A stretch of 64,000 nt of DNA from Minisyncoccia bacterium (GTDB lineage Bacteria; Patescibacteriota; Minisyncoccia; Phycocordibacterales; Zambryskibacteraceae): NCBI GenBank assembly GCA_041742965.1, contig JBGTNQ010000004.1, forward strand, positions 716 to 64,715, given 5' to 3'. A model generated the notes under the pieces. It saw only the letters and a program-made list of their open reading frames with translations. It was not told the origin of the DNA and searched no databases. How positions within the stretch are numbered: the stretch's first letter is position 1; each line of letters begins with the position of its first letter. Below are positions 1-59,958 of the stretch, piece after piece. Both the position numbers and the translations under genes were made by a program.

Positions 1-75
1 GAGTGGTTTAAATCAACGGTTTACTAAACCGTCGTTCCTTAACTGGGACCGTGAGTTCGAATCTCACCGCCTCCG
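1..75 (+). tRNA. Partial tRNA (3' two-thirds), class II-like with long variable arm, cut by the window start. Anticodon loop reads UUACUAA, formally anticodon ACU, which is unusual. Amino-acid identity uncertain.
   Basis: T-arm gtgag/TTCGAAT/ctcac at 51-67. Acceptor 3' strand cgcctcc at 68-74. Anticodon stem acggt/accgt at 16-20 and 28-32. 18-nt variable region. CCA not encoded. Confidence 0.45.
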
Positions 76-237
76 CAACGACCGGCAAAGATAGCCGGGG
101 GCTATCTGAGTCGGGTGTCGTTTCGAGAGTAAGGTGAGATTCGAAAGACGGAGTCCGCCTCAGGCGGACGAGTCCGGGCAGGAGCCACACAATATTTTAA
201 GAGCAAAGCGAATTAAAATATTGATGTGAGCTGACGC

Positions 238-260
238 CGAATCTCACCACCTCCGCAAAA
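238..260 (+). repeat. Direct repeat of the tRNA 3' end (T-loop to acceptor). 21 of 23 nt identical to positions 58-80.
   Basis: ccgaatctcaccacctccgcaaa versus tcgaatctcaccgcctccgcaac. The intervening 88-237 is GC-rich and includes an inverted partial T-arm-like motif gtgagattcgaaag at 134-147. Confidence 0.5.
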
Positions 261-443
261 TAAAGAGCTTGCGACTATATTTTGCGAGAGTGCTGAGCCT
301 TTGGCGAAGTGCTCCGCAAGCCCTCCCTAGTGAGATACCTAGTGATTTCACTAGGAAGAACATCCCCCCATAACAGCTTGTCATAAAGGTTCAGTGTACT
401 CGTCTATATAAGAGGCAAGGTTATTATTAGGTATTTTAAAAAC

Positions 444-704
444 ATGAGTAATAATATAAAGGTTTATCAGTGGGCGACAGCAATACTGGCAGTAATTGTT
501 ATTTTTCCAGCAATATCACTAATGCAAGCAAATAAAGAAGCCGAGTCATCAGACAGCTTGGATAGTGTGGCAAGTCGCCTTGAAGCTTGTAACGACAGCA
601 TAACAGCATGGAGACAAGCTAATCCAGACGGCCAGCCTCGTTCAGCAGACGCTCAGGAAGAACTCGCAAAAATCCTCTCGGAATGTGCGGAATTAACTCA
701 ATAA
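444..704 (+). CDS. Small hypothetical protein with N-terminal hydrophobic segment (signal or anchor)
   Basis: 86-aa ORF followed by an intrinsic terminator. No recognisable family. Confidence 0.4.
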   Translation: MSNNIKVYQWATAILAVIVIFPAISLMQANKEAESSDSLDSVASRLEACNDSITAWRQANPDGQPRSADAQEELAKILSECAELTQ

Positions 705-718
705 AAAACAAATAAAAA

Positions 719-745
719 CACGCCCCTAAAAAGGGGCGTGTTTTT
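719..745 (+). terminator. Rho-independent terminator
   Basis: cacgcccc/ggggcgtg stem followed by TTTTT. Confidence 0.6.
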
Positions 746-774
746 GGTAGCACTCTCTCTGTTACTATAGAGCT

Positions 775-2961
775 ATGGATTTAGAGACCCCCATCAAAAA
801 TATTGCCCGCCTACTTCCTGCGCAGGAAAAAGCATTAAAAAAACTTCGCATAGAAAAAGTTGGCGACATACTATATCACTTCCCTACTCGCTATGGAGAT
901 GTGGCGAGTAAAATGAACATAGGAGAACTAAGCGCCGGAGACAGTGCGGTCGTATTTGGCACGATAAGCAACCTCAAAACCAAAAAAGCTTTTCACAAAG
1001 GGACCCCGATGGCAGAAGGAGAACTCCAAGACGAAACAGGGAAAATAAAAATTATTTGGTTCCATCAGGCATACCTAGCCAAAATGATCACCGAAGGATC
1101 TCTGGTTCGAGTAGAAGGTAAAGTTTCAGAAAGAAAAGGCCTTCTCTCTATAATGAATCCTAAAATTGAAAGTGTATCAAAAGCACCGTTGGCCGTCGGA
1201 GGATCTCTCTTTGGCGAAGAAGGAGTGCCTGAGCATGCTCTATATCCTGTTTATCCAGAAAGTAGGGGTGTTACATCAAACTGGATGTATCACTGTCTGC
1301 AAAAAATATTCAAATCTGGAATTCTAGAAAATGTAGTTGACCCAGTTCCAGAAGATATATTAAAAAAATACAAACTTCCAAGTCTCAAAACGGCATTGAT
1401 TTGGGTACATACCCCCAGAAAACAAGATGACGCTATGTCTGCGAGAAAAAGATTCGCATTTGAGGAAATATTTTTCATACAACTAAGAAGACAAAAGGAC
1501 AAAAGCACGTGGCGAAACCACCAAGCATTTTTAATATCTGCAGACAGAAAAAAAATAGAGCCCTTAATTTCTAGATTTCCATTTCCCCTTACCAAAGCCC
1601 AAGAGAGATCAATTGATTCTATACTTGAGGATTTTAAGAAGCCGTATCCCATGTCACGGCTCCTAGAAGGAGATGTGGGCAGTGGCAAAACAGCTGTGGC
1701 TGCAGCGATAGCATATGCTGTCATCACCACAAGGCCAAACAAGGACCCCTTGGACAGCGCTCAGGGCAAGCAAGACTTCGGGGCTCTTCAGGTTGCATAT
1801 ATGGCACCGACAGAAATATTAGCAAGCCAACACTTTGAATCATTTATAGAATACTTCAAAGATTCTGATATCTCTGTCGGATTAATCACTGGAAGTGGAT
1901 GTAGGAAATTCCCATCTAAAGTTAATCCTTCTGGATGGACTGACATATCCAGAGCCCAGCTACTAAAATGGGTAGCTAATGGAGAAATACCAATACTCGT
2001 CGGCACACATGCACTTATACAGAAAACTGTAAAATTCAAACACCTCGGATTAGTTGTAATAGACGAACAACATAGATTTGGAACTGCCCAAAGACAAAAA
2101 TTGAGAGAAAAAGAAGGTATTCTTCCCCACCTTCTTTCAATGACCGCGACTCCAATACCCAGAACTCTGGCTCTTACCATATATGGCGATCTTGATTTAA
2201 GCCTACTGGACGAGCTACCCTCCGGACGAAGAAATATAGAAACAGAAATCGTCTTACCTCAAAACAGAGAAAGAACTTATGAACATATCCGCAAAGAAAT
2301 AGGGGCAGGAAGACAGGCTTATGTTATTTGCCCACGCATTAATGAGCCAGATCCGGATAAAGAAAAAGCCATCCTCGCTAAATCCGTCACCGAAGAGGCC
2401 AAGAGGCTCAAAAAAGAAGTGTTCAAGGAATTTGAAATCGGAGTTCTACACGGGAAGATGACACCGAAGAAAAAAGATGAAGTAATGGGTGACTTTGCTT
2501 CTGGTAAAATTCAAATTCTTATAGCGACTTCAGTAGTAGAGGTGGGTGTAAATGTGCCAAATGCTACAGTAATAATCATTGAGGGTGGAGAGCGTTTTGG
2601 TCTAGCGCAACTACACCAACTTCGCGGACGAGTAATGAGAAGCAGTCACCAACCATATTGTTTTATATTCGCAGAAACAAAAAGCCAAAAATCTATTGAA
2701 AGACTGCGGGCCATAATGAAAGCCAAAAATGGTTTTGAACTTGCTGAGTATGACTTGGCCCAGCGTGGAGCCGGAGACTTAACTGGCAAAAAACAGTGGG
2801 GGCTCACTGACCTTGGGATGGAAGCGATAAAAAACATAAGGATGGTAGAGGCTGCCCGCACTGAAGCAGAAAAATTAATCAGTGCTGACCCAGAACTCAA
2901 AACATATCCGACCCTACAGAAAGAATTGACCGGGTCAAGAGAGTCTATTCATTTTGAGTAG
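775..2961 (+). CDS. recG: ATP-dependent DNA helicase RecG
   Basis: 728 aa. Walker A GDVGSGKT. DEQHRFG motif (RecG-type, not Mfd). Motif MTATPIPRTLALTIYGDLDLS. N-terminal wedge-like domain. Confidence 0.85.
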   Translation: MDLETPIKNIARLLPAQEKALKKLRIEKVGDILYHFPTRYGDVASKMNIGELSAGDSAVVFGTISNLKTKKAFHKGTPMAEGELQDETGKIKIIWFHQAYLAKMITEGSLVRVEGKVSERKGLLSIMNPKIESVSKAPLAVGGSLFGEEGVPEHALYPVYPESRGVTSNWMYHCLQKIFKSGILENVVDPVPEDILKKYKLPSLKTALIWVHTPRKQDDAMSARKRFAFEEIFFIQLRRQKDKSTWRNHQAFLISADRKKIEPLISRFPFPLTKAQERSIDSILEDFKKPYPMSRLLEGDVGSGKTAVAAAIAYAVITTRPNKDPLDSAQGKQDFGALQVAYMAPTEILASQHFESFIEYFKDSDISVGLITGSGCRKFPSKVNPSGWTDISRAQLLKWVANGEIPILVGTHALIQKTVKFKHLGLVVIDEQHRFGTAQRQKLREKEGILPHLLSMTATPIPRTLALTIYGDLDLSLLDELPSGRRNIETEIVLPQNRERTYEHIRKEIGAGRQAYVICPRINEPDPDKEKAILAKSVTEEAKRLKKEVFKEFEIGVLHGKMTPKKKDEVMGDFASGKIQILIATSVVEVGVNVPNATVIIIEGGERFGLAQLHQLRGRVMRSSHQPYCFIFAETKSQKSIERLRAIMKAKNGFELAEYDLAQRGAGDLTGKKQWGLTDLGMEAIKNIRMVEAARTEAEKLISADPELKTYPTLQKELTGSRESIHFE

Positions 2962-3005
2962 CTTTTCCTTAACAAAATCATGTAGTATGGTATTGAAATC
3001 ACAAA

Positions 3006-3079
3006 CCGCCCTTAGCTCAGTTGGTTAGAGCACAGAGCTTATACCTCTGGGGTCCCAGGTTCAAATCCTGGAGGGCGGA
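3006..3079 (+). tRNA. tRNA-Ile with anticodon UAU (reads AUA)
   Basis: Cloverleaf: acceptor ccgccct/agggcgg, D-arm gctc-agttggtta-gagc, anticodon stem cagag/ctctg with loop CTTATAC, T-arm ccagg/TTCAAAT/cctgg, discriminator A. CCA not encoded. Confidence 0.75.
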
Positions 3080-3204
3080 CTACTGTAATGCCCTAGCGCA
3101 TCCTTTTGCTCAAGCAAAAGGGAGCAGGGATTTGAAGCCTTTCTTCAGATTTTTTAGAGTAAGAGCGAATAAAAAATCGAAAAAGGGAACTGAGTCTGTA
3201 AGAC

Positions 3205-3223
3205 TCAAATCCTGGAGGGCGGA
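3205..3223 (+). repeat. Exact 19-nt direct repeat of the tRNA-Ile 3' end (T-loop to acceptor end)
   Basis: caaatcctggagggcggac is identical to 3062-3080. Confidence 0.6.
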
Positions 3224-3238
3224 CTTTGAAATCATTCA

Positions 3239-3279
3239 TATACCTCTGGGGTCCTTGGTTCAAATCCAAGAGGGCGGAC
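3239..3279 (+). repeat. 41-nt copy of the tRNA-Ile 3' half (anticodon loop to 3' end) with compensatory T-stem substitutions
   Basis: atacctctggggtcc-cttgg-ttcaaatcc-aag-agggcggac versus native ccagg/cctgg. Both T-stem strands changed so that pairing is kept. Confidence 0.6.
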
Positions 3280-3408
3280 CAGACAAAACCCAACACGCCA
3301 ATGGGTTGGCGTGTTGGAGGCAATACACATCCCCAGTAGCACGGGCGGTTGTATGGGTTTTTCTTTGGTATAATAAAAACAGCTTTATTAATAGGTAATA
3401 TAGATAAT

Positions 3409-3627
3409 ATGAAATTACACAAAATAGCTTGGGTCCTTCTCATAATTGGAGGTATCAACTGGCTTTTGATTGGCGTTATTGGTTGGGGGGTTGAAGATCT
3501 AGTAGGAATGCAAATCGCTAGAATCATATATGTACTTGTTGGAGTATCCGCCGTATATGAGCTTTTCACTCACAAGAATAACTGCAAGGATTGTGTAGCG
3601 AAGGCGCCTTCTCAGCCACAAATGTAA
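3409..3627 (+). CDS. DUF378-family small membrane protein
   Basis: MKLHKIAWVLLIIGGINWLLIGVIGW matches the DUF378 N-terminal signature. Start moved to the internal ATG at 3409; the upstream part of the tracked ORF overlaps tRNA repeats. Confidence 0.55.
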   Translation: MKLHKIAWVLLIIGGINWLLIGVIGWGVEDLVGMQIARIIYVLVGVSAVYELFTHKNNCKDCVAKAPSQPQM

Positions 3628-3640
3628 TTTAGGTTTATTC

Positions 3641-3689
3641 AAAACCCCCACCGCCTAGGCGGTGGGGGTTTTGTTTTATTTTTTTTTAA
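3641..3689. terminator. Bidirectional intrinsic terminator
   Basis: aaaacccccaccgcc-tagg-cggtgggggtttt, flanked by A-run and T-run. Lies between convergent genes. Confidence 0.6.
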
Positions 3690-4273: not shown

Positions 4274-6205
4274 TTATGCTTGATGCTCTATGTCTTTCTT
4301 TTTCTTCACGGTCACACCATGCGCGACTAGAATCTTTTCGAACTCATCTCTCTCTATGGTCTCAACTTCAATGAGTCTCTTTGAAATAGCGTCGAGTAGA
4401 CTACGGTTTTCAGTTAAAACCTTTTCCGCCCGAGCGAGAGCCTCATTCATTATCTTGGAAACTTCAGCATCAATATGAGCACTCACTTTCTCTGAATAAT
4501 CTTTGTCATCAACCCCTCTTCCAAAAAGTGCTTTGCCACCTTGGCCTTCCAGTGCAATAGGGCCAATGTCGTCTGACATTCCATATTTTGTGACCATGTC
4601 TCTAGCTAAAGCAGTAGAAACCTGTAAATCATTTGATGGACCAGTGGTAATATCACCGAAAATCATTTTTTCCGCTACATATCCGCCCAGTGACATAGCA
4701 ATATCGTCTAAGAATTCTTTTTTAGATTGAAGCTTCCTGTCTTCAAGGGGAAGGTTCAAAGTATAACCAGCAGCACGACCTCGAGAAATTATAGAAATTT
4801 TATGTACCGGATCAGAGTATTCCAAGACAGAACCGACGAGGGCATGACCGGCTTCATGATAAGCAGTAATCTCCTTCTCTTTCAAAGAAAGTAGGTGGCT
4901 CTTCCTCTCTGGGCCCAACATCACTTTTTCAATAGAACGAATCAGGTCAAATTGAGAAACTTTGGTGCGATCTTCACGGGCAGCAAGAATTGCGCCCTCG
5001 TTCATTAGGGAGTATAAATCTGCACCAGAAAACCCCGGGGTTCTCTCTGCGATAATTTTTAAATTTACATCTTCGGCTAGAGGTTTTTTGCGAGCGTGTA
5101 TTTCTAAAATCTCTTCTCTATCACCCCTATCTGGCAAATCTATAGTCACTCTCCTATCAAACCTACCTGGACGAAGCAGGGCGGGGTCTAAAACATCAGG
5201 TCGATTGGTCGCCGCCATCACTACAACCTTTTCATTTGGTTCAAAGCCATCCATTTCCACCAAAATTTGGTTTAGTGTCTGCTCTCTTTCATCATTTCCT
5301 CCGCCGGCACCAACCCCCCTGACTCGGCCGACTGCATCAATTTCATCTACGAAAATGATTGCTGGGGCAGCCTTTTTGGCAAGTTGAAAAAGATCGCGAA
5401 CCCTAGATGCTCCGACACCCACAAACATTTCCACAAACTCTGAGCCAGAAATAGAGAAGAAAGAAACTCCCGCCTCCCCTGCCACTGCACGAGCAAGAAG
5501 AGTTTTTCCGGTTCCCGGCGCACCCATCAAAATCACACCTTTTGGAATTTGAGCACCTATTTCTAAAAATTTCTTTGGATTCTTCAAGAAATCCACAATC
5601 TCTGCCAGTTCTTGTTTCGCTTCCTTTGCCCCAGCAACATCCTTAAATGTCACTCTCTGCTTTTTATCGTCTGGTGATATTATTCGCGCTTTTGATTGAC
5701 CGAAAGTAAAAGCTTGTGCCCCAGCCCCTTTAACCTGACGGGAAAGAAACCATATGAAGAAAATAATAAAACCTATTGGTATAAGTATCGGCAAAAGATT
5801 CAATACCCAAAAACCAACGCCTCGATTGTCCTGAACATCTATAGAAACATTGGCCAACTGTTCTGGAGTTACTCCGTAGTTTACTAATGTCTGAGAAATA
5901 GCTACGCCAGATTCTTTTTGAGAATTTTTCTCTTCTCCTTCTTTATAAAATATTGAAAGATTGTCTCCTTTCACTTCTACCTTTTCTACAGAGCCAGCCG
6001 TGATATCTCTAGCCAATTCTGAAATTGGAATAACTATTTCCTCCTTTTTATTTTCAGTCAAAAAAGAATATAGGGTCGAGAGGACAAGAAATATCAAAAG
6101 AGTGGATAACAAATTCTTACCAAATGAGCCGGCTGGCCCGCCTTTGCCCCAACCTACATTAAGTGGGTTTTTGGGTGAATTTTTTTGATTTGGTTTTTTT
6201 GTCAT
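4274..6205 (-). CDS. ftsH: ATP-dependent zinc metalloprotease FtsH
   Basis: Two N-terminal TM segments. AAA Walker [12 protein letters not shown] region. Zinc site HEAGHALV. Confidence 0.92.
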
Positions 6206-6287: not shown

Positions 6288-6731
6288 ATGTCACTTATAG
6301 ATAACCGAAAAGCTAGGTTTGACTATGAGATCGGAGAGGCCTTTGAAGCTGGTATAGAGCTTTTGGGTCTTGAGGTCAAAAGTCTACGCAAAGGACAGGG
6401 GTCCCTTGAAGGAAGCCACGTTATTGTGCGTGGTGGAGAGGCTTTTCTTATTGGCGCCCAAATTCCCCCATACCAGCCGTCTAATACAGCGAAGGATTAC
6501 GACCCAAAGAGAAATAGGCGACTTCTACTAACCAAGAAGGAAATAAGCCAAATTTCTAAAAATGAAGGCCAAAGTGGCTTGACAATTGTGCCTATTTCGG
6601 TGTATAATAAGGGGAAGAACCTCAAAATACAGATCGGGATTGCTCGTGGAAAAAAGAAATTTGATAAACGAGAAACAATTAAAAAACGAGAGACTGAGAG
6701 AGAAACTAGAAGAGATTGGAAAAATAACTAG
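6288..6731 (+). CDS. smpB: SsrA-binding protein SmpB
   Basis: NRKARFDYEI N-terminus. Basic C-terminal tail. Size 147 aa. Confidence 0.85.
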   Translation: MSLIDNRKARFDYEIGEAFEAGIELLGLEVKSLRKGQGSLEGSHVIVRGGEAFLIGAQIPPYQPSNTAKDYDPKRNRRLLLTKKEISQISKNEGQSGLTIVPISVYNKGKNLKIQIGIARGKKKFDKRETIKKRETERETRRDWKNN

Positions 6732-6790: not shown

Positions 6791-7193
6791 GGGGGTGAAT
6801 TGCTTAGACAAAGAAGTCCCCTTGAAATACGCGAGAGAGAGCTGTGGTGACTCTTAAATCCGCCACAAATGACTAAATGCAAACAGCATCGTCGCACGAG
6901 CAAAGTCGGTAGTTTCTCCATATTTTGGAGCTAAGGATTTCGCTTTCGCTTACGCTTCGGCCTAAGTGACATCAACCCTTGTGAAGTCTGTTAGCGAGGT
7001 GTTGGTGTAATATTTTCGGACTCTAGGAAATACCCGCTCCAGTATTTTCTGAACTGTAGGAGCTCGATAATGTGGGGTTTTGTTTACTTTCAACCCACAT
7101 TATTTAAATCGCTTCGGCGAATGAGGTAAACTACCTCTCGTAGAAGTATTTCAAGGGTTTCTTTGCACGGGAGCTCAATACTCCCCACCTCCA
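6791..7193 (+). ncRNA. ssrA: tmRNA (SsrA), one-piece
   Basis: Immediately downstream of smpB. 5' GGGGGUG pairs with 3' CACCUCC, giving a 7-bp acceptor stem with a G3:U70 wobble (alanine identity), then discriminator A. T-arm-like gggag/CUCAAUA/ctccc at 7169-7185. Ala-rich tag-like frame ending AKDFAFAYASA then stop at 6963-6965, with a candidate GCA resume codon at 6879. Terminator follows. Confidence 0.65.
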
Positions 7194-7275
7194 CAAAAAT
7201 AAGGAACGAAGTGACTATATTTTTGTAGGACTCCGCTTCGCAGCGCGAAGCGGAGTAACACAATTTTAAAAAAAC

Positions 7276-13303: not shown

Positions 13304-14674
13304 CTAAAGAATACCTTTGTTACCCTTTTCTGGAACAACAACTTCAATATTGAAATTATCTCGCAATCTCTGAGCTAAAAATAAAGATGACTTTGGCTCA
13401 CCCATAACTACAAAAACTTTTTTCAACCTTCCTAAAGCTTTTTCTATAAAATCTACTAAAGCATCTGAATCTTTGTGAGCCGAGTAACCAGATATATTTT
13501 CTATCCTTGCTCTAACTTGAACCTTCTCTTCGTGAATAACAACCTCTTTCATCCCTTCTTCAAGCTTTCTTCCCAAAGTTCCTATGGCCTGATAACCCAT
13601 CAAAAGTATAGTGTTATTTGGATTTGGTAGATACCTTGCCTCATGATCAACGACCCTTCCGGCTGTAGACATTCCGGAACCAGCAATAATAATCTTAGGA
13701 GATGGGACGGATTCTATGTGCTGTGACTCTGCCACTCGAGCAGTTTCCTTAAATTTAGGAAAGTGAAAAATCTTATCTCCCCCCTGAATATCCCTCTTTA
13801 CCTCATCGTTATAGTGCCCAATCATTCTTTCATATATATCGGTTAGTCTAATAGCCAATGGAGAATCTAAGAAAACTGGAAGTGGGGAAATAGCTCCTGA
13901 TTCAACTAGATTATTAATCTGATAAACAATAATCTGAGCTCTCTCCAAAGAAAAAGCCGGTATTACTAGTGTGCCCTTGCGGGAGATAGTCTCTTTTATT
14001 ATCTCAACAAATCTTTTTTCCCTTACATCTTTAGGTTCATGGTTTCTGTCACCATATACACTGTCTATGACAATATAATCAGCATCATTAACAAACTCCG
14101 TGTCTTTGACCAAGGTTGACGGAGAGTTTCCGAGGTCACCAGTAAACAAAATTGTTTTTTTATTACCATCTTTTTCAGTTATAGAAAATAAAAACATTGA
14201 AGAACCTAGTATATGTCCGGCATCTTTAAGTGTGACACTGAGATTTTTACTAACAGTGTGGGGGGCATGATAAGAAAGAGTCTTCCATAGAGAAAACGCG
14301 CGAGTAACATCAGCCGTTGTGTATGGAGGCAAGGTCCCGTTGGCACGAGCCTCAGAATCAGCAATACGGGCTGCGTCAGCAAGCATAAGTTCTGCTAGCT
14401 CTTTTGTTGGTGCGGTGGAAAAAATAGTTCCCCTAAATCCATCCTTAACAAGTTTTGGTATTCGTCCTATATGATCAATATGTGCGTGAGTAACAAAAAG
14501 AAAATCTATACTATCTGGATTATATGGGAAATCTGCTTTATTAAAACTCTCAGCCTCCTTGAGGCCCTGAAGCATGCCGCAATCAATAAGAGCCCTGAAC
14601 CCTTCTCCTTCTAAGAGAAAATTCGCACCTGTTACTGTCCCAACGCCACTAAAAAAAGTTACTGATGATGACAT
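13304..14674 (-). CDS. MBL-fold beta-CASP family ribonuclease (RNase J / CPSF-like)
   Basis: HxHxDH motif as FVTHAHIDHIG. beta-CASP region and C-terminal RNA-metabolising domain. 456 aa. Confidence 0.6.
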   Translation of the reverse strand: MSSSVTFFSGVGTVTGANFLLEGEGFRALIDCGMLQGLKEAESFNKADFPYNPDSIDFLFVTHAHIDHIGRIPKLVKDGFRGTIFSTAPTKELAELMLADAARIADSEARANGTLPPYTTADVTRAFSLWKTLSYHAPHTVSKNLSVTLKDAGHILGSSMFLFSITEKDGNKKTILFTGDLGNSPSTLVKDTEFVNDADYIVIDSVYGDRNHEPKDVREKRFVEIIKETISRKGTLVIPAFSLERAQIIVYQINNLVESGAISPLPVFLDSPLAIRLTDIYERMIGHYNDEVKRDIQGGDKIFHFPKFKETARVAESQHIESVPSPKIIIAGSGMSTAGRVVDHEARYLPNPNNTILLMGYQAIGTLGRKLEEGMKEVVIHEEKVQVRARIENISGYSAHKDSDALVDFIEKALGRLKKVFVVMGEPKSSLFLAQRLRDNFNIEVVVPEKGNKGIL

Positions 14675-14675
14675 A

Positions 14676-15062
14676 TTACTTGTCCTTAAATTTCGAGGAG
14701 TATTTTATAGCAATATAAGCCCCAATTAATCCGAATAAAATATCACCTATGGTATCTAAAATATAACTTCCATGAGTCAAGGCGAAACCATTTACATACT
14801 CAAAAATTTCCCAAACTATGGCCACAATCAAAACCCCAGCGATAGTCAAGAAAAGCACTGACCTAGAAGAGATGCTATGAAAAAGGCGGTAAAGGATAAA
14901 AACGATGAGAAGTCCTAGAACAAAACCAGTAAGTGTGTGCAAAAGTATATCAAACCACCAGTAAATCCAATAGAAATAATTCTCAAGAGCTATTGTATGT
15001 AAAAAATACACAAGAATGGATAGGAGTAGAGTGGGAACAAGTATGGCTCTAAATTGATTCAT
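14676..15062 (-). CDS. Hypothetical 4-TM membrane protein (possibly VanZ-like)
   Basis: 128 aa, very hydrophobic. WEIFEYVNG...DTIGDILFGLIG is loosely VanZ-like. Confidence 0.35.
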   Translation of the reverse strand: MNQFRAILVPTLLLSILVYFLHTIALENYFYWIYWWFDILLHTLTGFVLGLLIVFILYRLFHSISSRSVLFLTIAGVLIVAIVWEIFEYVNGFALTHGSYILDTIGDILFGLIGAYIAIKYSSKFKDK

Positions 15063-35594: not shown

Positions 35595-36452
35595 TTATTT
35601 AACTTTGATATTTGTTCCGTCTGAATGAAAAGTAATATTCCCCTCTTTTGCTGTTTCAAAAATCTTTACATCAAAATTTTTTAATCTCTCTACTACATCT
35701 ATATGAGGATGGCCATAAGAATTATCTTTGCCAGCGGATATAACCCCGTACTTTGGAGAAACGGCGGACAAAAAAATATCACTGGTTGAAGTTTTTGAAC
35801 CATGGTGGCCAACCTTTAGAACTTCGCAATTTAAACTGTTCCCCAAAATACTAACGATGTAATTTTCCATCTTTTCTGGAGCATCACCAGTTAACATAAA
35901 ACAAGTATCGCCATATACATAACGAGCGATAATGGAAGCATCGTTTGTATTTAAAGAAGAAACATCTCTATCCGGAAAAAGGATTTCCAGATAAGATCCG
36001 TCCATCAAATCAACTATCATTCCCTTGTGAGCAATCAAAGTTTTGACATCTTTTTCGGTTAAAAGCCTGTCTATCTCATCATCAAAAGAATTTGGAGACT
36101 CTGCCCCCGGTTCAATAAAAACCCCCACCCTATACCTGTTTATCAAGTGTGGGAAACCTGCAATATGGTCTTTGTCCGGATGCGTGGCGACCAGAACATC
36201 TACAAATTTATCGAAAAAAGAAATTTCTTTTGATATTTGCCTCAAAATAGATTTACTTGGACCAGCATCAATGATGATTTGATTCCCAGTTCTGCCAGTT
36301 ATGAGCAAGCTATCTCCCTGACCGACGTCTAGAAAAGACACAGAAACATAGTCCTTTGGCCTCTCATAGAATACCGCCGTCCAAATGGCAACATTGATAA
36401 TAACCAAGAATAAAAGTCCTAAAGACTGATAGTTTTTCTTGATTTGTCCCAT
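35595..36452 (-). CDS. Membrane-anchored MBL-fold protein resembling the ComEC/Rec2 C-terminal metallo-beta-lactamase domain
   Basis: One TM segment. MBL motifs: HPDKDHIAG, LKVGHHGSKTS. Start moved to ATG 36452 (MGQIKKNY). Confidence 0.55.
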   Translation of the reverse strand: MGQIKKNYQSLGLLFLVIINVAIWTAVFYERPKDYVSVSFLDVGQGDSLLITGRTGNQIIIDAGPSKSILRQISKEISFFDKFVDVLVATHPDKDHIAGFPHLINRYRVGVFIEPGAESPNSFDDEIDRLLTEKDVKTLIAHKGMIVDLMDGSYLEILFPDRDVSSLNTNDASIIARYVYGDTCFMLTGDAPEKMENYIVSILGNSLNCEVLKVGHHGSKTSTSDIFLSAVSPKYGVISAGKDNSYGHPHIDVVERLKNFDVKIFETAKEGNITFHSDGTNIKVK

Positions 36453-36518
36453 ATTTTTATTATAACCCCAGCAAATGATATAATTAAAAAGCGACAACTT
36501 ACTATTTAAGCCAATACA

Positions 36519-37109
36519 ATGACCCAATTTCAAGAACAAAAATTTAATATTCCAAAGCTCATTGGAATTTCGGAAAAAAACATTGAAGAACACTTGAAGC
36601 TTTACTCTGGATATGTGAAAAATGCCAACACTATTCTTGAAAAGATAGACGAATACAAAACAGATAGTGAAAAACATGCTTATGCACTAGGAGAACTTGG
36701 CCGAAGATTTGCATTTGAATTTGATGGTATGAGAAATCACGAATACTATTTCCATTCACTTGAAGGTGGGGCGACGCCACTTTCAAATGGAGCTCTAAAA
36801 GAAAAAATTGAAGAAACTTGGGACTCACTTGATAATTTCCTGACAATGTTCAAGGCTCTCGCCCTGACGCGCGGTGTAGGATGGGCATGGCTCTATTATG
36901 ACAAACACACCGACAGACTCTTAACACAGTGGAGTGATGAGCAACATTTAGGCCACCTCGTTGGCTGTACACCAATCCTCGGTATTGATGTTTGGGAACA
37001 TGCATTTGTCTCCGACTATCAACCTTCTGGTAAAAAACAATATGTGGAAGACTTTTTATCCAATCTAAACTGGTCCGTTATAGAGGAAAACTACAATCAA
37101 TCGAAGTAA
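36519..37109 (+). CDS. sod: Fe/Mn superoxide dismutase family protein (divergent N-terminal His pair)
   Basis: C-terminal GIDVWEHAF ... NW signature, GVGWAWL, RNHEYY. The canonical HHxKHH is replaced by EEHLKLY. Confidence 0.6.
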   Translation: MTQFQEQKFNIPKLIGISEKNIEEHLKLYSGYVKNANTILEKIDEYKTDSEKHAYALGELGRRFAFEFDGMRNHEYYFHSLEGGATPLSNGALKEKIEETWDSLDNFLTMFKALALTRGVGWAWLYYDKHTDRLLTQWSDEQHLGHLVGCTPILGIDVWEHAFVSDYQPSGKKQYVEDFLSNLNWSVIEENYNQSK

Positions 37110-37138: not shown

Positions 37139-38944
37139 ATGGGAAAAGTTAGGATCTTCATAAATAATATTTTTCGATCACTGAAACTCACTGTGAGTTT
37201 TTCTCCAAAAGTGAGTGTTGCTTTGTTTTTGGTAACAATGGCGGTCAGTTTGTCCCCCATATTTCAAGCAAAAGTCCTTGGAAACATTGTTGACGGCATA
37301 ATACTTGCCCTTTCTACCAACCAGTCAATCCAAACAGTGATGGCTCTTGTCTTTGGTTACGCCGCTATTTGGGGAGGTACTAGAATAGCCAACTCATTAC
37401 AATTATTACTGAATAAAATATGGAGTCTAGAAAACGGGGACGCGCTAGACCTTCTTTTCTTGAAAAAAAGGGCCGAGATTGATTTAGCTCATTATGAAAA
37501 CCCAAAATTCCAAAACCTTATGTTGCGTGCATTTAACAGGGGAACTTGGCCACTTTTTGAAATGGCAGACATGCAACCTCAAATCTTTGCGAACATATCT
37601 GTTATTTTGGTATCTTCTTTGTTCGCCTCATCTATCAACCCTTATATTTATATAATTATCATCCTATCCTCATTGCCAAGCTTTATCGTACAGTTTGTAT
37701 ACGGATCTAAGGTGTGGGGTATTTGGGGCGAACACAGTGAAAGACAAAGAAAGTACTCTTCACTTCGCTATCACATCATAAACAGAACTGGTGTAACTCA
37801 ATTAAAACTTCTTCAGAATGCAAAAGGTGTCCTAAGTATCATAGAGAAAATTCTTTCAGACTTTAAAAACGACCAACTCAAGACGGATAGAAAACGATTC
37901 TTTGCCACTGCTATATCAAGTCTTATCTCCGCTATAGGATTTGGAATAGCGATGATCATAATAGCTCGGCAGGTTCTAGATAATAACGAAGTTGGAACAC
38001 TGGTATTCATAGTAGGAACATTGGCGGCTTTGGTGGGTGCCATAAACCAACTTTTGGCACAAGTTGCAACCCTTCTTGAAAAAAACCTATATGTTACCGA
38101 TATCTTCCAAGTGCTAGACACAGAACCATTTATCAAGAAAACCCTAAACCCTATTAGGCTTGATCTGACAAAGGCCCCTAGTATTGAATTTAGAAATGTA
38201 AGCTTCAAATATGACGGGCGAGATGATTGGATTCTCCGAAATATAAATATAACCATAAAGTCAGGAGAAAAAATTGCTCTTGTGGGCTCAAACGGAGCTG
38301 GTAAAACCACTTTAATAAAACTTCTCTCTCGTATATACGACCCAACAGAAGGAGATATATTTATAAACGAAATCAATCTCAAAGATATAGATCCCGCTGA
38401 ATGGAGCTCTTATCTTTCAGTGCTTCTCCAGGATTACCTGAACTACGACCTGACTGTCAGGGAATCCATAGGTATGGGAAGAATTGAATCTGAATCAGAT
38501 GAAAAGACAGTAAGAGAGGCTGCTGTTTGGAGTGGGGCAAGTGAGTTCATAGAAACATGGGAGAAAAAATATGACCAACAACTAGGAAAAGAATTTGACA
38601 GCGGTATTGAACCATCAAAAGGCCAGCAACAGAAGATTGCTCTTGCCCGCACACTTTTTCGTAATGGACTCGTTGTTATACTTGACGAACCTACAGCCGC
38701 CATTGACGCACTGTCAGAAATGGAAATATTTGAAGCCATGGAAGACGCGGTCCGTGGCAACACCCTGATACTCATAACTCACAGATTTAATACCACACAG
38801 AGTGTAGACAGAATAGTTGTCATAGAACACGGAGAGATTCAGGAAGCAGGCTCACACAAAGAACTTATGGCCAAAAAAGGTATTTATAAAAACATGTTCG
38901 AAAGCCAAGCTAAAAGTTTTAAAAATACTGAAGAGCAACAATAA
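37139..38944 (+). CDS. ABC transporter, fused permease/ATP-binding (exporter type)
   Basis: 6-TM N-terminal domain. Walker A GSNGAGKTT. Signature-like SKGQQQKIALAR. Walker B ILDEPTAAID. H-loop. Confidence 0.8.
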   Translation: MGKVRIFINNIFRSLKLTVSFSPKVSVALFLVTMAVSLSPIFQAKVLGNIVDGIILALSTNQSIQTVMALVFGYAAIWGGTRIANSLQLLLNKIWSLENGDALDLLFLKKRAEIDLAHYENPKFQNLMLRAFNRGTWPLFEMADMQPQIFANISVILVSSLFASSINPYIYIIIILSSLPSFIVQFVYGSKVWGIWGEHSERQRKYSSLRYHIINRTGVTQLKLLQNAKGVLSIIEKILSDFKNDQLKTDRKRFFATAISSLISAIGFGIAMIIIARQVLDNNEVGTLVFIVGTLAALVGAINQLLAQVATLLEKNLYVTDIFQVLDTEPFIKKTLNPIRLDLTKAPSIEFRNVSFKYDGRDDWILRNINITIKSGEKIALVGSNGAGKTTLIKLLSRIYDPTEGDIFINEINLKDIDPAEWSSYLSVLLQDYLNYDLTVRESIGMGRIESESDEKTVREAAVWSGASEFIETWEKKYDQQLGKEFDSGIEPSKGQQQKIALARTLFRNGLVVILDEPTAAIDALSEMEIFEAMEDAVRGNTLILITHRFNTTQSVDRIVVIEHGEIQEAGSHKELMAKKGIYKNMFESQAKSFKNTEEQQ

Positions 38945-38945
38945 T

Positions 38946-40430
38946 CTAACTAACAGACTTTGTGTTAATTTTTTGATACAAGAAAAATAGAAGACAACTG
39001 AGGTACAGAAACACCAATAATCCGACGGGAACGGCGCCGAAAGACAGAGCGCTTAGTGGTAAATTGGCGAAAAAAGTAGATACAAAAACAATATAAGCGA
39101 GGAACAAATATGATATGAATCCCGGAATTATAGCTAGAGCTCCAGAGATTAAACTTAAAATTCCCGTGACGAACCCCAGAAACATAACTAGAGGAACGAT
39201 GGGCAAAACAATTAAATTTACAATAAACCCCGATATTGAAACTGTTCCTATAGCGTAAAGCAAGAGTGGTAAAACAAAAAGCTGGGTAGACAAGGTGGCA
39301 GAAGCAATATCTCGCAGACCAAACTTCTCTGGTATCAGAGAAAACCTCTTTTCAAAAATGGGAGCTATCCAAATAATAGCGACAGTGGCTAGGAAAGAAA
39401 GTTGGAAACCTAAATCAAAAGCCAGCACAAAAGGGTTCCATAAAACCATCACAAACAGAGCAATCAAAAGTGAGCGAGATACAGCATATGTTCTGTGAGT
39501 AAAACGCGCCACAAGAACCAATAGGGCCATTAGAGATGCTCTCACCACAGAAGGTCCCGCACCAACCATAATTGCAAACAACACTATCCCCAAAGCACTA
39601 AAAACAAGGGCTCTTTTACGAGACAAAAAAGAAAGTGTCTTCATCACCGCTTCTGCTACGAGGGTGATGTTGTAACCAGAAAGAACGATGATATGAATAA
39701 TGCCCACAATCCTGAAAGCATCTAAAAGGTCGTCCCCCAGAGATTCTTCACTACCCAAGAGAATGCCAGCGAGTAAGGATGATTCTGGATCTGGTATTGC
39801 CCTTTCTATCGCCCCAATGAAAACATTTTTGCCAGTGAAAAGCGCCCTGCGTAAAGAAAAAGCGGATTGGCCAGCCTTGTCAGTAGTAGCGAAAGATAGA
39901 ATAAAATGTACACCCTCTTTCCTCAAATATTTTTCATAATCAAAAACTCTGCCACCCTCTGTCTCAAATGGTTCTGGGCGATTGAGTGTTCCGCGAACAA
40001 TAAGCTTGTCACCATAGAAAAACTCTGGAAACATATCCGCCCTCACAAGCATTCTTTCACCGGAATTTGTCTCCACTAAATATTCTCTATAAGACGCCCT
40101 CTCCCTGGGCTCTTTGACAACTTTGCCAACAACAGAGATCTTTTCACCAGAAAGTTCAACCAAAATTTGGTTGATTGGTTTATCTACCGATATGAAACGC
40201 AATACACCAAACCCATAACAAAGTAAAAAAATAGATGCTAAAAAAAATATTTCTCGAAAATATTTATCAGGAATAGAGCGCCAAGAATACAATAGTGTCA
40301 GAACCCCGAGGAAGACTGCGAACACTCCGAAGGGTATTGAAGCAAAGCCAAACGAGGCACACCAAACGCCGACACAAAATCCGATAACAAAAGAAAATAT
40401 CCAAAATCTCTTTAATGGATTTTCTTCCAT
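38946..40430 (-). CDS. ComEC/Rec2-like DNA-uptake channel membrane domain (no MBL domain)
   Basis: 494 aa. N-terminal DUF4131-like region plus a polytopic Competence-domain-like core. Confidence 0.55.
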   Translation of the reverse strand: MEENPLKRFWIFSFVIGFCVGVWCASFGFASIPFGVFAVFLGVLTLLYSWRSIPDKYFREIFFLASIFLLCYGFGVLRFISVDKPINQILVELSGEKISVVGKVVKEPRERASYREYLVETNSGERMLVRADMFPEFFYGDKLIVRGTLNRPEPFETEGGRVFDYEKYLRKEGVHFILSFATTDKAGQSAFSLRRALFTGKNVFIGAIERAIPDPESSLLAGILLGSEESLGDDLLDAFRIVGIIHIIVLSGYNITLVAEAVMKTLSFLSRKRALVFSALGIVLFAIMVGAGPSVVRASLMALLVLVARFTHRTYAVSRSLLIALFVMVLWNPFVLAFDLGFQLSFLATVAIIWIAPIFEKRFSLIPEKFGLRDIASATLSTQLFVLPLLLYAIGTVSISGFIVNLIVLPIVPLVMFLGFVTGILSLISGALAIIPGFISYLFLAYIVFVSTFFANLPLSALSFGAVPVGLLVFLYLSCLLFFLYQKINTKSVS

Positions 40431-59691: not shown

Positions 59692-59958
59692 ATGTTCTAT
59701 ACGTATGTACTTCGATCTAAAAAAGATTCAAAGTTGTACATTGGTTGCACAAAAGATTTAAAAGTTAGATTTGAGGAACATAACGCTGGGTATTCTTCAG
59801 CAACAAGTAAAAGAGGTCCGTTTCAACTTGTTTATTACGAAGCTTGTTGTGACAAGAAAGACGCGTTGCGACGGGAGAGATATCTGAAAACTACCTATGG
59901 TGGAAGATATCTCAAAAATCGCCTCAAATCTTATTTCACAGGGTACTCAATTTTATAA
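59692..59958 (+). CDS. GIY-YIG nuclease family small protein
   Basis: YTYVLRS...LYIGCT (GIY-YIG), R and E catalytic residues. 88 aa. Confidence 0.65.
   Translation: MFYTYVLRSKKDSKLYIGCTKDLKVRFEEHNAGYSSATSKRGPFQLVYYEACCDKKDALRRERYLKTTYGGRYLKNRLKSYFTGYSIL

What the first reader, a model, noticed from the sequence alone, without database searches (positions are those of the whole stretch)
3006..3079. tRNA-Ile with a genomically encoded UAU anticodon
- Most bacteria decode AUA with a lysidine-modified CAU tRNA-Ile2.
- A true UAU anticodon is known only from a few lineages, for example some Mollicutes.
- In an AT-rich, AUA-rich genome this suggests TilS-independent AUA decoding.
Basis: partly seen in the sequence, partly recalled or inferred. 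Interest (0 to 1): 0.5.

Follow-up and report, generated by a model that had tools for sequence, protein, structure and literature searches.

The report
Genome-encoded UAU isoleucine tRNA, CPR bacterium
A working isoleucine tRNA that reads the AUA codon directly, without the usual lysidine trick, is conserved across a large group of ultra-small uncultured (CPR) bacteria, and its gene sits among remnants of older copies that were split and replaced.

Summary
**Observation:** confirmed. Window 3006-3079 (+) is a perfect 74-nt cloverleaf tRNA with anticodon TAT (ARAGORN; Rfam 70.5 bits).

**Not a pseudogene or one-off.**
- 53 of 79 related loci have the same tRNA near recG; nearly all are Parcubacteria/Paceibacteria-type CPR genomes.
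- 16 of 21 stem pairs co-vary.
- The loop CUUAUAC is kept in 50 of 52 genes.

**AUA usage and meaning.**
- AUA makes up 38% of Ile codons in the window.
- AUA codon positions align with Ile/Leu/Val in orthologues, so AUA means Ile.

**IleRS.** In two relatives it is type 2, the class reported for tilS-less Bifidobacterium and Neorickettsia.

**Open point.** Absence of tilS and of tRNA-Ile2(CAU) could not be tested. TilS-independent decoding is therefore likely, not shown.

**Unexpected.** Orphan pieces of older tRNA-Ile(UAU) genes lie just downstream (3205-3223 and 3239-3278). In relatives, whole genes are split at TATA in the anticodon loop by an insert of roughly 150-250 nt carrying a complete replacement tRNA. 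These splits are sometimes nested. tRNA identity is largely uncoupled from host divergence.

**Verdict.** A new lineage for a known decoding solution, plus a possibly new disrupt-and-replace tRNA cassette.

The parts
3006..3079 (+). tRNA-Ile(UAU) gene, 74 nt. Anticodon TAT at 3040-3042, loop CTTATAC, discriminator A at 3079, no encoded CCA.
   Evidence: ARAGORN; Rfam tRNA 70.5 bits; 52 homologues with 99.7% of cells paired and 16/21 pairs compensatory.
2962..3005 (+). 44-nt recG-tRNA spacer (leader and presumed promoter). It contains ATTGAAATCA, a motif also seen upstream of the tRNA in L001, L039 and L043.
   Evidence: Sequence. No consensus sigma-70 promoter found, so the promoter role is inferred only.
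3081..3204 (.). 124-nt spacer of unknown origin between the tRNA and the first orphan fragment. It has no homologue in 1.2 Mb of related loci.
   Evidence: blastn-short; a minus-strand terminator-like hairpin at 3190-3208.
3205..3223 (+). Orphan fragment 1: the last 19 nt of a tRNA-Ile(UAU) gene (T-loop 3' part plus acceptor 3' strand plus A73). It is identical to 3061-3079, and identity runs on to 3225.
   Evidence: the repeat finder family D1; the DNA search gave 3 matches against 0 expected.
3224..3238 (+). 15-nt 'right arm' (CTTTGAAATCATTCA) that ends at the TATA junction. With the flanking A and TATA (3223-3242) it is 19/20 identical to the right arm of the L082 cassette and, inverted, 19/20 identical to the left arm of the L002 cassette.
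   Evidence: blastn-short; sequences.
3239..3278 (+). Orphan 3' half of an older tRNA-Ile(UAU) gene. It starts exactly at the anticodon (TATACC...) and runs to A73. It is 90% identical to the live gene, and the T-stem differences are compensatory (CCTTGG/CCAAGG against CCCAGG/CCTGG).
   Evidence: the repeat finder family D2; nhmmer positions 32-73, E 4.5e-7; the same T-stem occurs in live genes of relatives.
3289..3318 (.). Perfect 12-bp hairpin (CCAACACGCCAA/TTGGCGTGTTGG), terminator-like on the minus strand, that closes the tRNA region before the DUF378 gene (3409-3627).
   Evidence: the repeat finder I2; terminator scan; Pfam DUF378.

Best explanation
Window 3006-3079 encodes a functional elongator tRNA-Ile whose anticodon is genomically UAU. 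It is the conserved AUA decoder of a Parcubacteria/Paceibacteria-type CPR (Patescibacteria) lineage. Proposed mechanism: (1) the gene is transcribed and matured, and CCA is added after transcription because none is encoded (shown from sequence). (2) It is charged with isoleucine by a type-2 (archaeal/eukaryote-like) IleRS, which reads A35/U36 and tolerates U34. The IleRS type was shown only in two relatives, and the charging is inferred. (3) U34 pairs directly with the A of AUA, so no lysidine and no TilS are needed (inferred). AUA is the most used or second most used Ile codon here and means Ile (shown). How AUG misreading is avoided is unknown. By analogy with Mycoplasma mobile it would rest on the ribosome, on competition with tRNA-Met, or on a U34 modification. 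The near-invariant C32/C38 loop may contribute. The gene sits in a locus that has undergone serial gene replacement: the orphan pieces at 3205-3223 and 3239-3278 are remains of two earlier copies.
For: The tRNA calls are unambiguous. tRNA-Ile(tat) lies near recG in 51 of 79 related loci, with two more cut by locus ends. Nearly all are Patescibacteria/Parcubacteria records. In the alignment of 37 distinct genes, 99.7% of cells are paired, 16/21 pairs show double changes, and the covariation score is 0.739 against 0.186 in shuffles (0/500). A73, the D-stem and CTTATA are invariant, and the loop is CTTATAC in 50/52 genes. AUA is 460 of 1,219 Ile codons. The 31 AUA columns of RecG align with I 53%, L 21% and V 15% in orthologues, like ATT/ATC columns and unlike AGA columns (R 46%). 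IleRS of relatives L015 and L021 matches TIGR00392 at 907 and 861 bits. Its Pfam architecture is tRNA-synt_1 + Anticodon_1 + DUF5915, without the type-1 zinc finger. It scores 846 bits against P. megaterium IleRS2 and 784 against Thermus IleRS, versus about 350 against type-1 structures. Taniguchi 2013 reports that tilS-less Bifidobacterium and Neorickettsia have this IleRS class. No tilS-like gene was found in the window or beside ftsH in any locus.
Against: Absence of tilS and of a CAU-type tRNA-Ile2 was not tested genome-wide. Only about 64 kb of this genome was visible, and the related loci all sample the same neighbourhood. Several bacteria keep tilS alongside a TAT gene, and many IleRS2-bearing bacteria have TilS (own knowledge). 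The IleRS type was seen in two relatives whose fetched loci do not contain the tRNA, not in this genome. The modification state of U34 is unknown. No consensus promoter was found upstream. In E. coli the closest tRNA body is argU (tRNA-Arg UCU, 83%), not ileX, so Ile identity rests on the anticodon, A73 and codon-usage evidence, not on an isotype-specific model.
Confidence: 0.72

Rival explanations
1. Redundant decoder: the genome also has tilS and a tRNA-Ile2(CAU). The UAU tRNA then only supplements AUA decoding, as proposed for Lactobacillus casei/plantarum, Cyanothece and Ferrimonas.
For: Such coexistence is documented (PMC3575796). TilS is nearly universal in bacteria (own knowledge). Genome-wide absence was not tested here.
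Against: The UAU gene is conserved across more than 50 species with strong purifying selection. AUA is 38% of Ile codons. The clade's IleRS is type 2, as in tilS-less Bifidobacterium and Neorickettsia. No tilS lies beside ftsH, a frequent tilS neighbour in other phyla (own knowledge), in about 50 loci.
Confidence: 0.23
2. The tRNA is a passenger of a mobile element or a decaying duplicate with no role in host translation, i.e. a pseudogene or selfish copy only.
For: Orphan tRNA fragments lie next to it. In relatives the gene is carried on an insert that splits the resident copy. tRNA identity is uncoupled from host divergence.
Against: It is the only intact copy at the locus, while the displaced copies are broken. 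Compensatory substitutions keep all four stems in 37 distinct sequences. AUA codons abound and need a decoder. Mobility and essential function are compatible, as in tRNA-dependent lysogeny.
Confidence: 0.03
3. Codon reassignment or mis-assigned identity: the UAU tRNA has an Arg-like body (closest to E. coli argU) and inserts something other than Ile at AUA.
For: The best E. coli match is tRNA-Arg(UCU), 83% over 71 nt.
Against: AUA columns align with I/L/V like ATT/ATC columns, and Arg is not among the six commonest residues there. A35 replaces the C35 that ArgRS needs, and position 20 is U, not A20 (own knowledge of ArgRS identity). A73, C4:G69 and U12:A23, known Ile identity elements in E. 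coli, are present (identity set from own knowledge).
Confidence: 0.02

Closest known systems
Mycoplasma mobile tRNA-Ile2(UAU) system (Taniguchi et al. 2013, PMC3575796)
   Same: The anticodon is genomically UAU, it decodes AUA, and no lysidine is needed. The host has a small genome that uses AUA heavily.
   Different: M. mobile uses a type-1 IleRS adapted by a single Trp-to-Arg change (R865). The relatives here have a type-2 IleRS. In M. mobile, unmodified U34 and ribosome-based rejection of AUG were shown experimentally; nothing is known here. The lineage here is CPR, not Tenericutes, and loss of tilS is not shown.
Bifidobacterium / Neorickettsia: tilS-less bacteria with a tRNA-Ile(TAT) gene and a eukaryote-type IleRS (PMC3575796 discussion)
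   Same: A UAU gene combined with a type-2 IleRS. This is the best functional analogue.
   Different: Those are isolated species or genera. Here the trait spans dozens of species-level CPR genomes. Absence of tilS was not verified here.
Bacteria with both tilS and a tRNA-Ile(TAT) gene (Lactobacillus casei/plantarum, Cyanothece PCC 7424, Ferrimonas balearica; PMC3575796)
   Same: A TAT gene is present.
   Different: That is redundant decoding. It cannot be told apart from the present case without the whole genome.
tRNA-dependent lysogeny of actinobacteriophages (Guerrero-Bustamante & Hatfull 2024, PMC10865867)
   Same: The logic matches the orphan halves: integration at a short common core splits an essential host tRNA gene without rebuilding it. 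[quoted passage not shown]
   Different: There the element is a complete phage with a tyrosine integrase and a core of about 10 bp. Here the insert between the halves is only about 150-250 nt, encodes no protein, and shares a 2-4 bp (TA/TATA) core in the anticodon loop. It occurs nested, and no donor phage was found.
Classical tDNA-integrating genomic islands/prophages (Islander, PMC4383910; anticodon-loop and T-loop sublocations of Williams 2002, own knowledge)
   Same: Displaced 3' tRNA fragments appear as direct repeats downstream of a regenerated tRNA. The window's fragments start at the anticodon loop and at the T-loop, the classical crossover sublocations.
   Different: There is no integrase and no island; the spacers are 13-124 nt. 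Relatives also carry orphan 5' halves upstream, which classical 3'-restoring integration does not produce.

Membership tests
TilS-independent AUA decoding by tRNA-Ile(UAU) (M. mobile / Bifidobacterium type) | Genomically encoded UAU anticodon in a structurally sound tRNA | tested here: met
   ARAGORN and Rfam, 70.5 bits; covariation in 37 homologues.
TilS-independent AUA decoding by tRNA-Ile(UAU) (M. mobile / Bifidobacterium type) | AUA codons are used and mean isoleucine | tested here: met
   AUA is 29.7 per 1000 codons and 38% of Ile codons. AUA columns align with I/L/V like ATT/ATC columns.
TilS-independent AUA decoding by tRNA-Ile(UAU) (M. mobile / Bifidobacterium type) | No tilS gene in the genome | not testable with these tools
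   No tilS was found in the 64-kb window or in about 1.2 Mb of related loci. The PP-loop motif search found only a QueC-like protein in L037. Whole genomes could not be read.
TilS-independent AUA decoding by tRNA-Ile(UAU) (M. mobile / Bifidobacterium type) | No tRNA-Ile2(CAU) gene in the genome | not testable with these tools
   No CAU tRNA was found in the window or in any clade locus. The sampling is local.
TilS-independent AUA decoding by tRNA-Ile(UAU) (M. mobile / Bifidobacterium type) | An IleRS able to accept a UAU anticodon (type-1 with an Arg/Lys substitution, or type-2) | tested here: inconclusive
   A type-2 IleRS was found in relatives L015 and L021. IleRS is not in the window, and its activity on UAU was not tested.
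tRNA-dependent lysogeny / disrupt-and-replace integration | The host tRNA gene is split at a short core and not reconstructed | tested here: met
   In relatives L082, L039, L002, L043 and L053, 5' halves end at ...CTTATA (L053...CTTA) and 3' halves start at TATACC. Joining them restores a tRNA-Ile(tat). In the window only the 3' side survives (3239-3278).
tRNA-dependent lysogeny / disrupt-and-replace integration | The incoming DNA carries a complete tRNA of the same isotype | tested here: met
   The only intact tRNA-Ile(UAU) lies between the halves. In L053, in L043 generation B and in the window, the inner and outer alleles differ by compensatory changes.
tRNA-dependent lysogeny / disrupt-and-replace integration | An element-encoded integrase and a phage genome lie between the att sites | tested here: not met
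   The inserts are about 150-250 nt and hold no ORF. No integrase or transposase lies next to the tRNA. No matching viral contig was found.
Classical tDNA genomic island (3'-restoring integrase) | An integrase gene and island lie between the regenerated tRNA and the displaced 3' fragment | tested here: not met
   Window 3080-3238 is 159 nt with no ORF of note. The next genes are DUF378, a hypothetical gene and ftsH.
Group I intron in a tRNA anticodon loop (known in Patescibacteria, PMC13011429) | A ribozyme between the tRNA halves | tested here: not met
   Rfam finds only tRNA and tmRNA in the window and in six loci with halves. The insert contains a complete tRNA instead.
MITE-type transposon | Terminal inverted repeats, a target duplication and several dispersed copies | tested here: inconclusive
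   Inverted arms of 12-20 bp abut the tRNA in L002, L039, L043 and L001, and a TA/TATA duplication is present. The arms occur nowhere else in 1.2 Mb.

The most novel reading that the evidence does not exclude
The tRNA-Ile(UAU) gene of these CPR bacteria travels on a tiny protein-less cassette of roughly 150-250 nt. In the clearest cases this is a 55-nt upstream module, inverted arms that extend the acceptor stem, and the tRNA. The cassette inserts at TA/TATA in the anticodon loop of the resident tRNA-Ile(UAU) gene, which is its own target. It destroys that copy and replaces it, so the host becomes dependent on the newcomer: a self-targeting, addictive 'homing' tRNA gene. Repeated rounds give Russian-doll nests (L043) and horizontal allele turnover. 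The window holds the relics of two such rounds (3205-3278). Because the target TATA exists only in UAU-type genes, the element and TilS-free AUA decoding may be linked in evolution.
Probability: 0.35. Interest if true: 0.8.

Novelty: new member of a known kind. Interest (0 to 1): 0.58.

Why it matters
If whole-genome scans confirm that tilS is absent, direct UAU decoding of AUA would extend from a handful of scattered species to a large radiation of uncultured bacteria that use AUA as a major codon. It would also tie that solution to type-2 IleRS. This bears on how the AUN box was decoded before lysidine. Taniguchi et al. proposed a UAU decoder in LUCA. It also bears on annotation: tilS is commonly used as a universal marker, and CAU/UAU tRNAs are easy to mislabel. 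Separately, the split and nested gene relics offer a natural case where an essential tRNA gene is repeatedly destroyed and replaced by incoming DNA. That would be a minimal form of the 'disrupt and complement' strategy so far shown only for whole phages.

Tried and rejected
- **Alternative anticodon or fold:** rejected.
- **AUA reassignment because the body resembles argU:** rejected by codon-column analysis.
- **Leader-trailer 'stalk' as a general processing signal of this tRNA:** rejected. It occurs in only 4 of 52 genes, with a median of 0.5 pairs, the same as the tRNA-Ser controls.
- **Dispersed MITE:** not supported. The arms occur only at this locus.
- **Group I intron or ribozyme between the halves:** none found.
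- **Donor phage:** there were no exact viral matches to the orphan half or to the tRNA core. A looser pattern hit at least 120 viral contigs, but those are unrelated multi-tRNA arrays, best 58 bits against 66-72 for clade members. This also shows that the CUUAUAC loop is not clade-specific.
- **Adjacent integrase or transposase:** none. The only recombinase trace is a truncated large serine recombinase about 5.5 kb away in L083.
- **Promoter inside the cassette or upstream of the window tRNA:** no consensus site on the right strand.
- **TilS search:** the PP-loop motif scan found only a QueC-like protein. I ran no further search on TilS, because their output carries no taxonomy and could not prove absence.
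- **Literature:** nothing in the held library links lysidine or tilS with Patescibacteria, Parcubacteria or Saccharibacteria.

Full report

Yes. ARAGORN reports a single complete tRNA in the 64-kb window, tRNA-Ile(tat) at 3006-3080 (+). Rfam's tRNA model matches 3006-3079 at 70.5 bits against a gathering score of 29, with every stem position paired. The sequence gives a 7-bp acceptor stem (CCGCCCU/AGGGCGG, C1:G72), a 4-bp D stem, a 5-bp anticodon stem (CAGAG/CUCUG) and a 5-bp T stem. The 7-nt loop is CUUAUAC, with U33, U34-A35-U36 at 3040-3042, and A37. The discriminator is A73, and no CCA is encoded. An independent Logan assembly (L085) is identical over window 1-3669, so the locus is not an assembly artefact.

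**2. Whose genome is it?**

The neighbouring genes are:
- recG (775-2961);
- a DUF378 membrane protein (3409-3627);
- ftsH (4274-6205, minus strand);
- smpB (6288-6731);
- tmRNA (6791-7196).

Further along lie the ribosomal-protein/EF-Tu/EF-G cluster, comEC and type IV pilus genes.

RecG relatives in the species-representative genome collection are, with very few exceptions, Patescibacteria of the Parcubacteria group. They include Zambryskibacteria, Nomurabacteria, Paceibacterota, Kaiserbacteria and Vogelbacteria, at 47-68% identity. The window is therefore from an unrepresented species of that CPR lineage. GC content is about 0.40.

**3. Is the tRNA functional?**

tRNA-Ile(tat) lies within a few kb of recG in 51 of the 79 related loci. 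Two more are cut by locus ends. Most loci without it have short flanks.

The 52 genes comprise 45 distinct sequences, and 50 of them keep the loop CTTATAC. On an alignment of 37 distinct sequences:
- 99.7% of cells form standard pairs;
- 16 of 21 pairs show changes on both sides;
- the covariation score is 0.739, against 0.186 in shuffles (0 of 500 reach it) and at most 0.16 for slid partners;
- the D stem, A73 and CTTATA are invariant.

This is the signature of a tRNA under purifying selection for both structure and anticodon, not a pseudogene.

**4. Does it match the coding demand?**

In ORFs of the window (15,510 codons), AUA occurs 460 times. That is 29.7 per 1000 codons and 38% of Ile codons. 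In RecG it is the commonest Ile codon (31 AUA, 16 AUU, 11 AUC).

The tRNA body resembles E. coli argU (83%) more than ileX, so I checked the meaning of AUA directly. In a 72-sequence RecG alignment, columns where the window has AUA carry I 53%, L 21% and V 15% in sequences that use another codon. ATT and ATC columns look the same, and AGA columns are R 46% and K 20%. AUA is therefore isoleucine.

**5. Is it TilS-independent?**

No tilS-like gene is in the window. A PP-loop motif scan of all ORFs of the window and 79 loci found only a QueC-like protein in L037. No tilS lies beside ftsH in about 50 loci. No CAU tRNA was seen. These are local samples, though, and whole genomes cannot be read with the tools at hand.

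Two relatives (L015, L021) carry IleRS next to recG, and it is clearly type 2:
- TIGR00392 scores 907 and 861 bits;
- the Pfam architecture is tRNA-synt_1 + Anticodon_1 + DUF5915, with no type-1 zinc finger;
- it scores 846 bits against P. megaterium IleRS2, 784 against Thermus IleRS, and about 590 against eukaryotic cytoplasmic IleRS;
- it scores about 350 bits against type-1 enzymes.

Taniguchi et al. (PMC3575796) report three relevant points:
- nine species in three clades lack tilS and carry a TAT gene;
- among these, Bifidobacterium and Neorickettsia have the eukaryote-type IleRS;
- other bacteria (L. casei/plantarum, Cyanothece, Ferrimonas) keep tilS together with a TAT gene.

I therefore rate TilS independence as likely (about 0.6-0.7) but unproven. 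Redundancy is the main rival. The held literature has nothing on lysidine or tilS in CPR bacteria.

**6. What else is at the locus?**

Two partial copies of the tRNA's 3' part lie downstream.
- 3205-3223 is identical to the last 19 nt of the gene.
- 3239-3278 is a 40-nt copy that starts exactly at the anticodon (TATACC...). It differs from the live gene by compensatory T-stem changes (CCTTGG/CCAAGG), and that T-stem is found in live genes of many relatives. It therefore derives from a different, once-functional allele.

Relatives explain this pattern.
- In L082/L083/L084 (one species, three metagenomes), L039 (= L081), L002, L043 and L053, the intact gene is flanked in the same orientation by orphan halves. 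An orphan 5' half (positions 1-38, ending ...CTTATA) lies upstream and an orphan 3' half (starting TATACC...) lies downstream.
- Joining each pair at the shared TATA restores a tRNA-Ile(tat) that ARAGORN recognises.
- In L043 the structure is nested: [degenerate 5' half C][5' half A][5' half B][intact gene][3' half B'][3' half A']. B and B' share their own acceptor stem (GCCCA/TGGGC).
- L044, L046 and L062 keep degenerate 5' halves.
- In L082, L039 and L002 the insert has the same layout: a 55-56-nt module, TATA, a 16-22-nt left arm, the tRNA, a 15-nt right arm, TATA.
- The arms are inverted repeats that extend the acceptor stem by 12-20 bp in L002, L043, L039 and L001. They are absent from the other 48 genes and from the tRNA-Ser controls.
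- The window's 3223-3242 is 19/20 identical to the right arm of L082 and, inverted, 19/20 identical to the left arm of L002.
- The arms occur nowhere else in 1.2 Mb of clade DNA.
- No integrase, transposase, intron or ribozyme is present, and no related viral contig was found.
- Across 1,128 species pairs, tRNA identity barely tracks RecG identity (r = 0.23). Identical tRNAs occur at 58-61% RecG identity, while the median tRNA identity at 70-80% RecG identity is only 75%.
- In L053, in L043-B and in the window, the displaced allele differs from the live one by compensatory changes.

**7. Interpretation of the relics**

What is shown: intact tRNA-Ile(UAU) genes have repeatedly been split at TA/TATA in the anticodon loop by DNA that carries a complete replacement gene, and alleles turn over horizontally.

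What is inferred: the agent. The closest known logic is tRNA-dependent lysogeny (PMC10865867). There, a phage integrates at a short core, does not rebuild the host tRNA, and supplies its own. The inserts here could be the minimal survivors of such elements in deletion-prone genomes. Alternatively they could be a small non-autonomous cassette moved in trans, or taken up by natural transformation, since comEC and pilus genes are in the window.

For the window, the simplest history has three generations:
- an old gene, of which only the 3' half remains (3239-3278);
- a replacement whose last 19 nt and right arm remain (3205-3238);
- the present gene (3006-3079).

The matching 5' relics have been lost next to recG. 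The 124 nt at 3081-3204 are unexplained.

**8. Comparison and novelty**

As an AUA decoder, this is a known kind of system (M. mobile, Bifidobacterium/Neorickettsia) in a new and much larger lineage. It appears to be paired with type-2 IleRS. I could not find it described for CPR bacteria in the held literature.

The disrupt-and-replace relics resemble tRNA-dependent lysogeny and classical tDNA islands, but they fail the defining features of both: there is no integrase, no element body, orphan 5' halves are present, and the structures are nested. I treat an autonomous 'homing tRNA cassette' as the most novel reading not excluded (probability about 0.35).

**9. Verdict**

Interest is moderate for the tRNA alone and higher because of the gene-replacement relics. 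The decisive missing piece is a whole-genome check for tilS and tRNA-Ile2(CAU).

Noticed in passing
window 1-75 (cut at the window start); complete in L085 367-454; also L001 9589-9676, L008 8592-8681, L015 8215-8302, L022 2367-2453, L032 4542-4629, L033 7770-7855, L037 8241-8329, L050 6530-6617, L074 6423-6510, L076 868-953: A class-II tRNA-Ser with anticodon ACU (A34; loop UUACUAA). It usually lies beside a tRNA-Ser(GCU) and is conserved in at least 11 genomes, with compensatory changes in the anticodon stem. In bacteria, A34 is normally confined to tRNA-Arg(ACG). AGU is 13.1 and AGC 7.2 per 1000 codons in the window.
   Followed up: partly
L015 12128-15604 (-), L021 12171-15737 (-): The clade's type-2 IleRS carries a complete histidine-phosphatase domain (Pfam His_Phos_1, residues about 505-670) inserted inside the synthetase. 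This makes it 1,159-1,189 aa long.
   Followed up: partly
L039 14040-14080 and 14620-14659 (-), with ORFs 13643-14044 and 14229-14711 (-): Two tandem units, each an internally deleted tRNA-Ile 'minihelix' (acceptor 5' strand plus T arm plus acceptor 3' strand). Each keeps the promoter-side flank of the outer gene and is followed 6 nt later by the start codon of a small paralogous membrane ORF.
   Followed up: partly
L043 12443-12461 and 12794-12812: Nearly the same 19-nt palindrome (CCTG[C/T]CTGCCGCAGGCAGG) is inserted in both the D arm of orphan 5' half A and the T loop of its partner 3' half A'. L002, L044, L046 and L062 have larger hairpin insertions in the D loop of their orphan 5' halves.
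   Followed up: no
window 35595-36677 (-), 37139-38944 (+), 38946-40430 (-): ComEC appears as two separate ORFs: the N-terminal ComEC/Rec2 domain and the C-terminal metallo-beta-lactamase domain. An oppositely oriented ABC-transporter gene lies between them.
   Followed up: no
window 13304-14674 (-): A 456-aa beta-CASP metallo-beta-lactamase ribonuclease. Its best matches are archaeal aCPSF1 (293 bits) and the Cas14 beta-CASP model (377 bits), both far below their cut-offs. This is an archaeal-like RNase in a bacterial genome.
   Followed up: no
window 59692-59958 (+); L085 about 95-340 (+), just upstream of tRNA-Ser(ACU); L062 18183-18449 (-): Small free-standing GIY-YIG nuclease-like ORFs of about 80-88 aa recur in these genomes, one of them next to a tRNA gene. 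No link to the tRNA-Ile rearrangements was established.
   Followed up: no
L083 2-832 (+): The C-terminal part of a large serine recombinase (Zn_ribbon_recom), cut by the contig end. It lies next to tRNA-Ser(GCU) and about 5.5 kb from the split tRNA-Ile locus. It is the only recombinase trace seen near any such locus.
   Followed up: no
viral loci L086-L165: At least 120 IMG/VR contigs, including giant-virus bins, carry tRNA genes with the motif AGAGC-N6-CTTATAC. ARAGORN tRNA-Ile(tat) genes in the 80 fetched loci, mostly inside large tRNA arrays. UAU-type tRNA-Ile with C38 is therefore common in viruses.
   Followed up: partly
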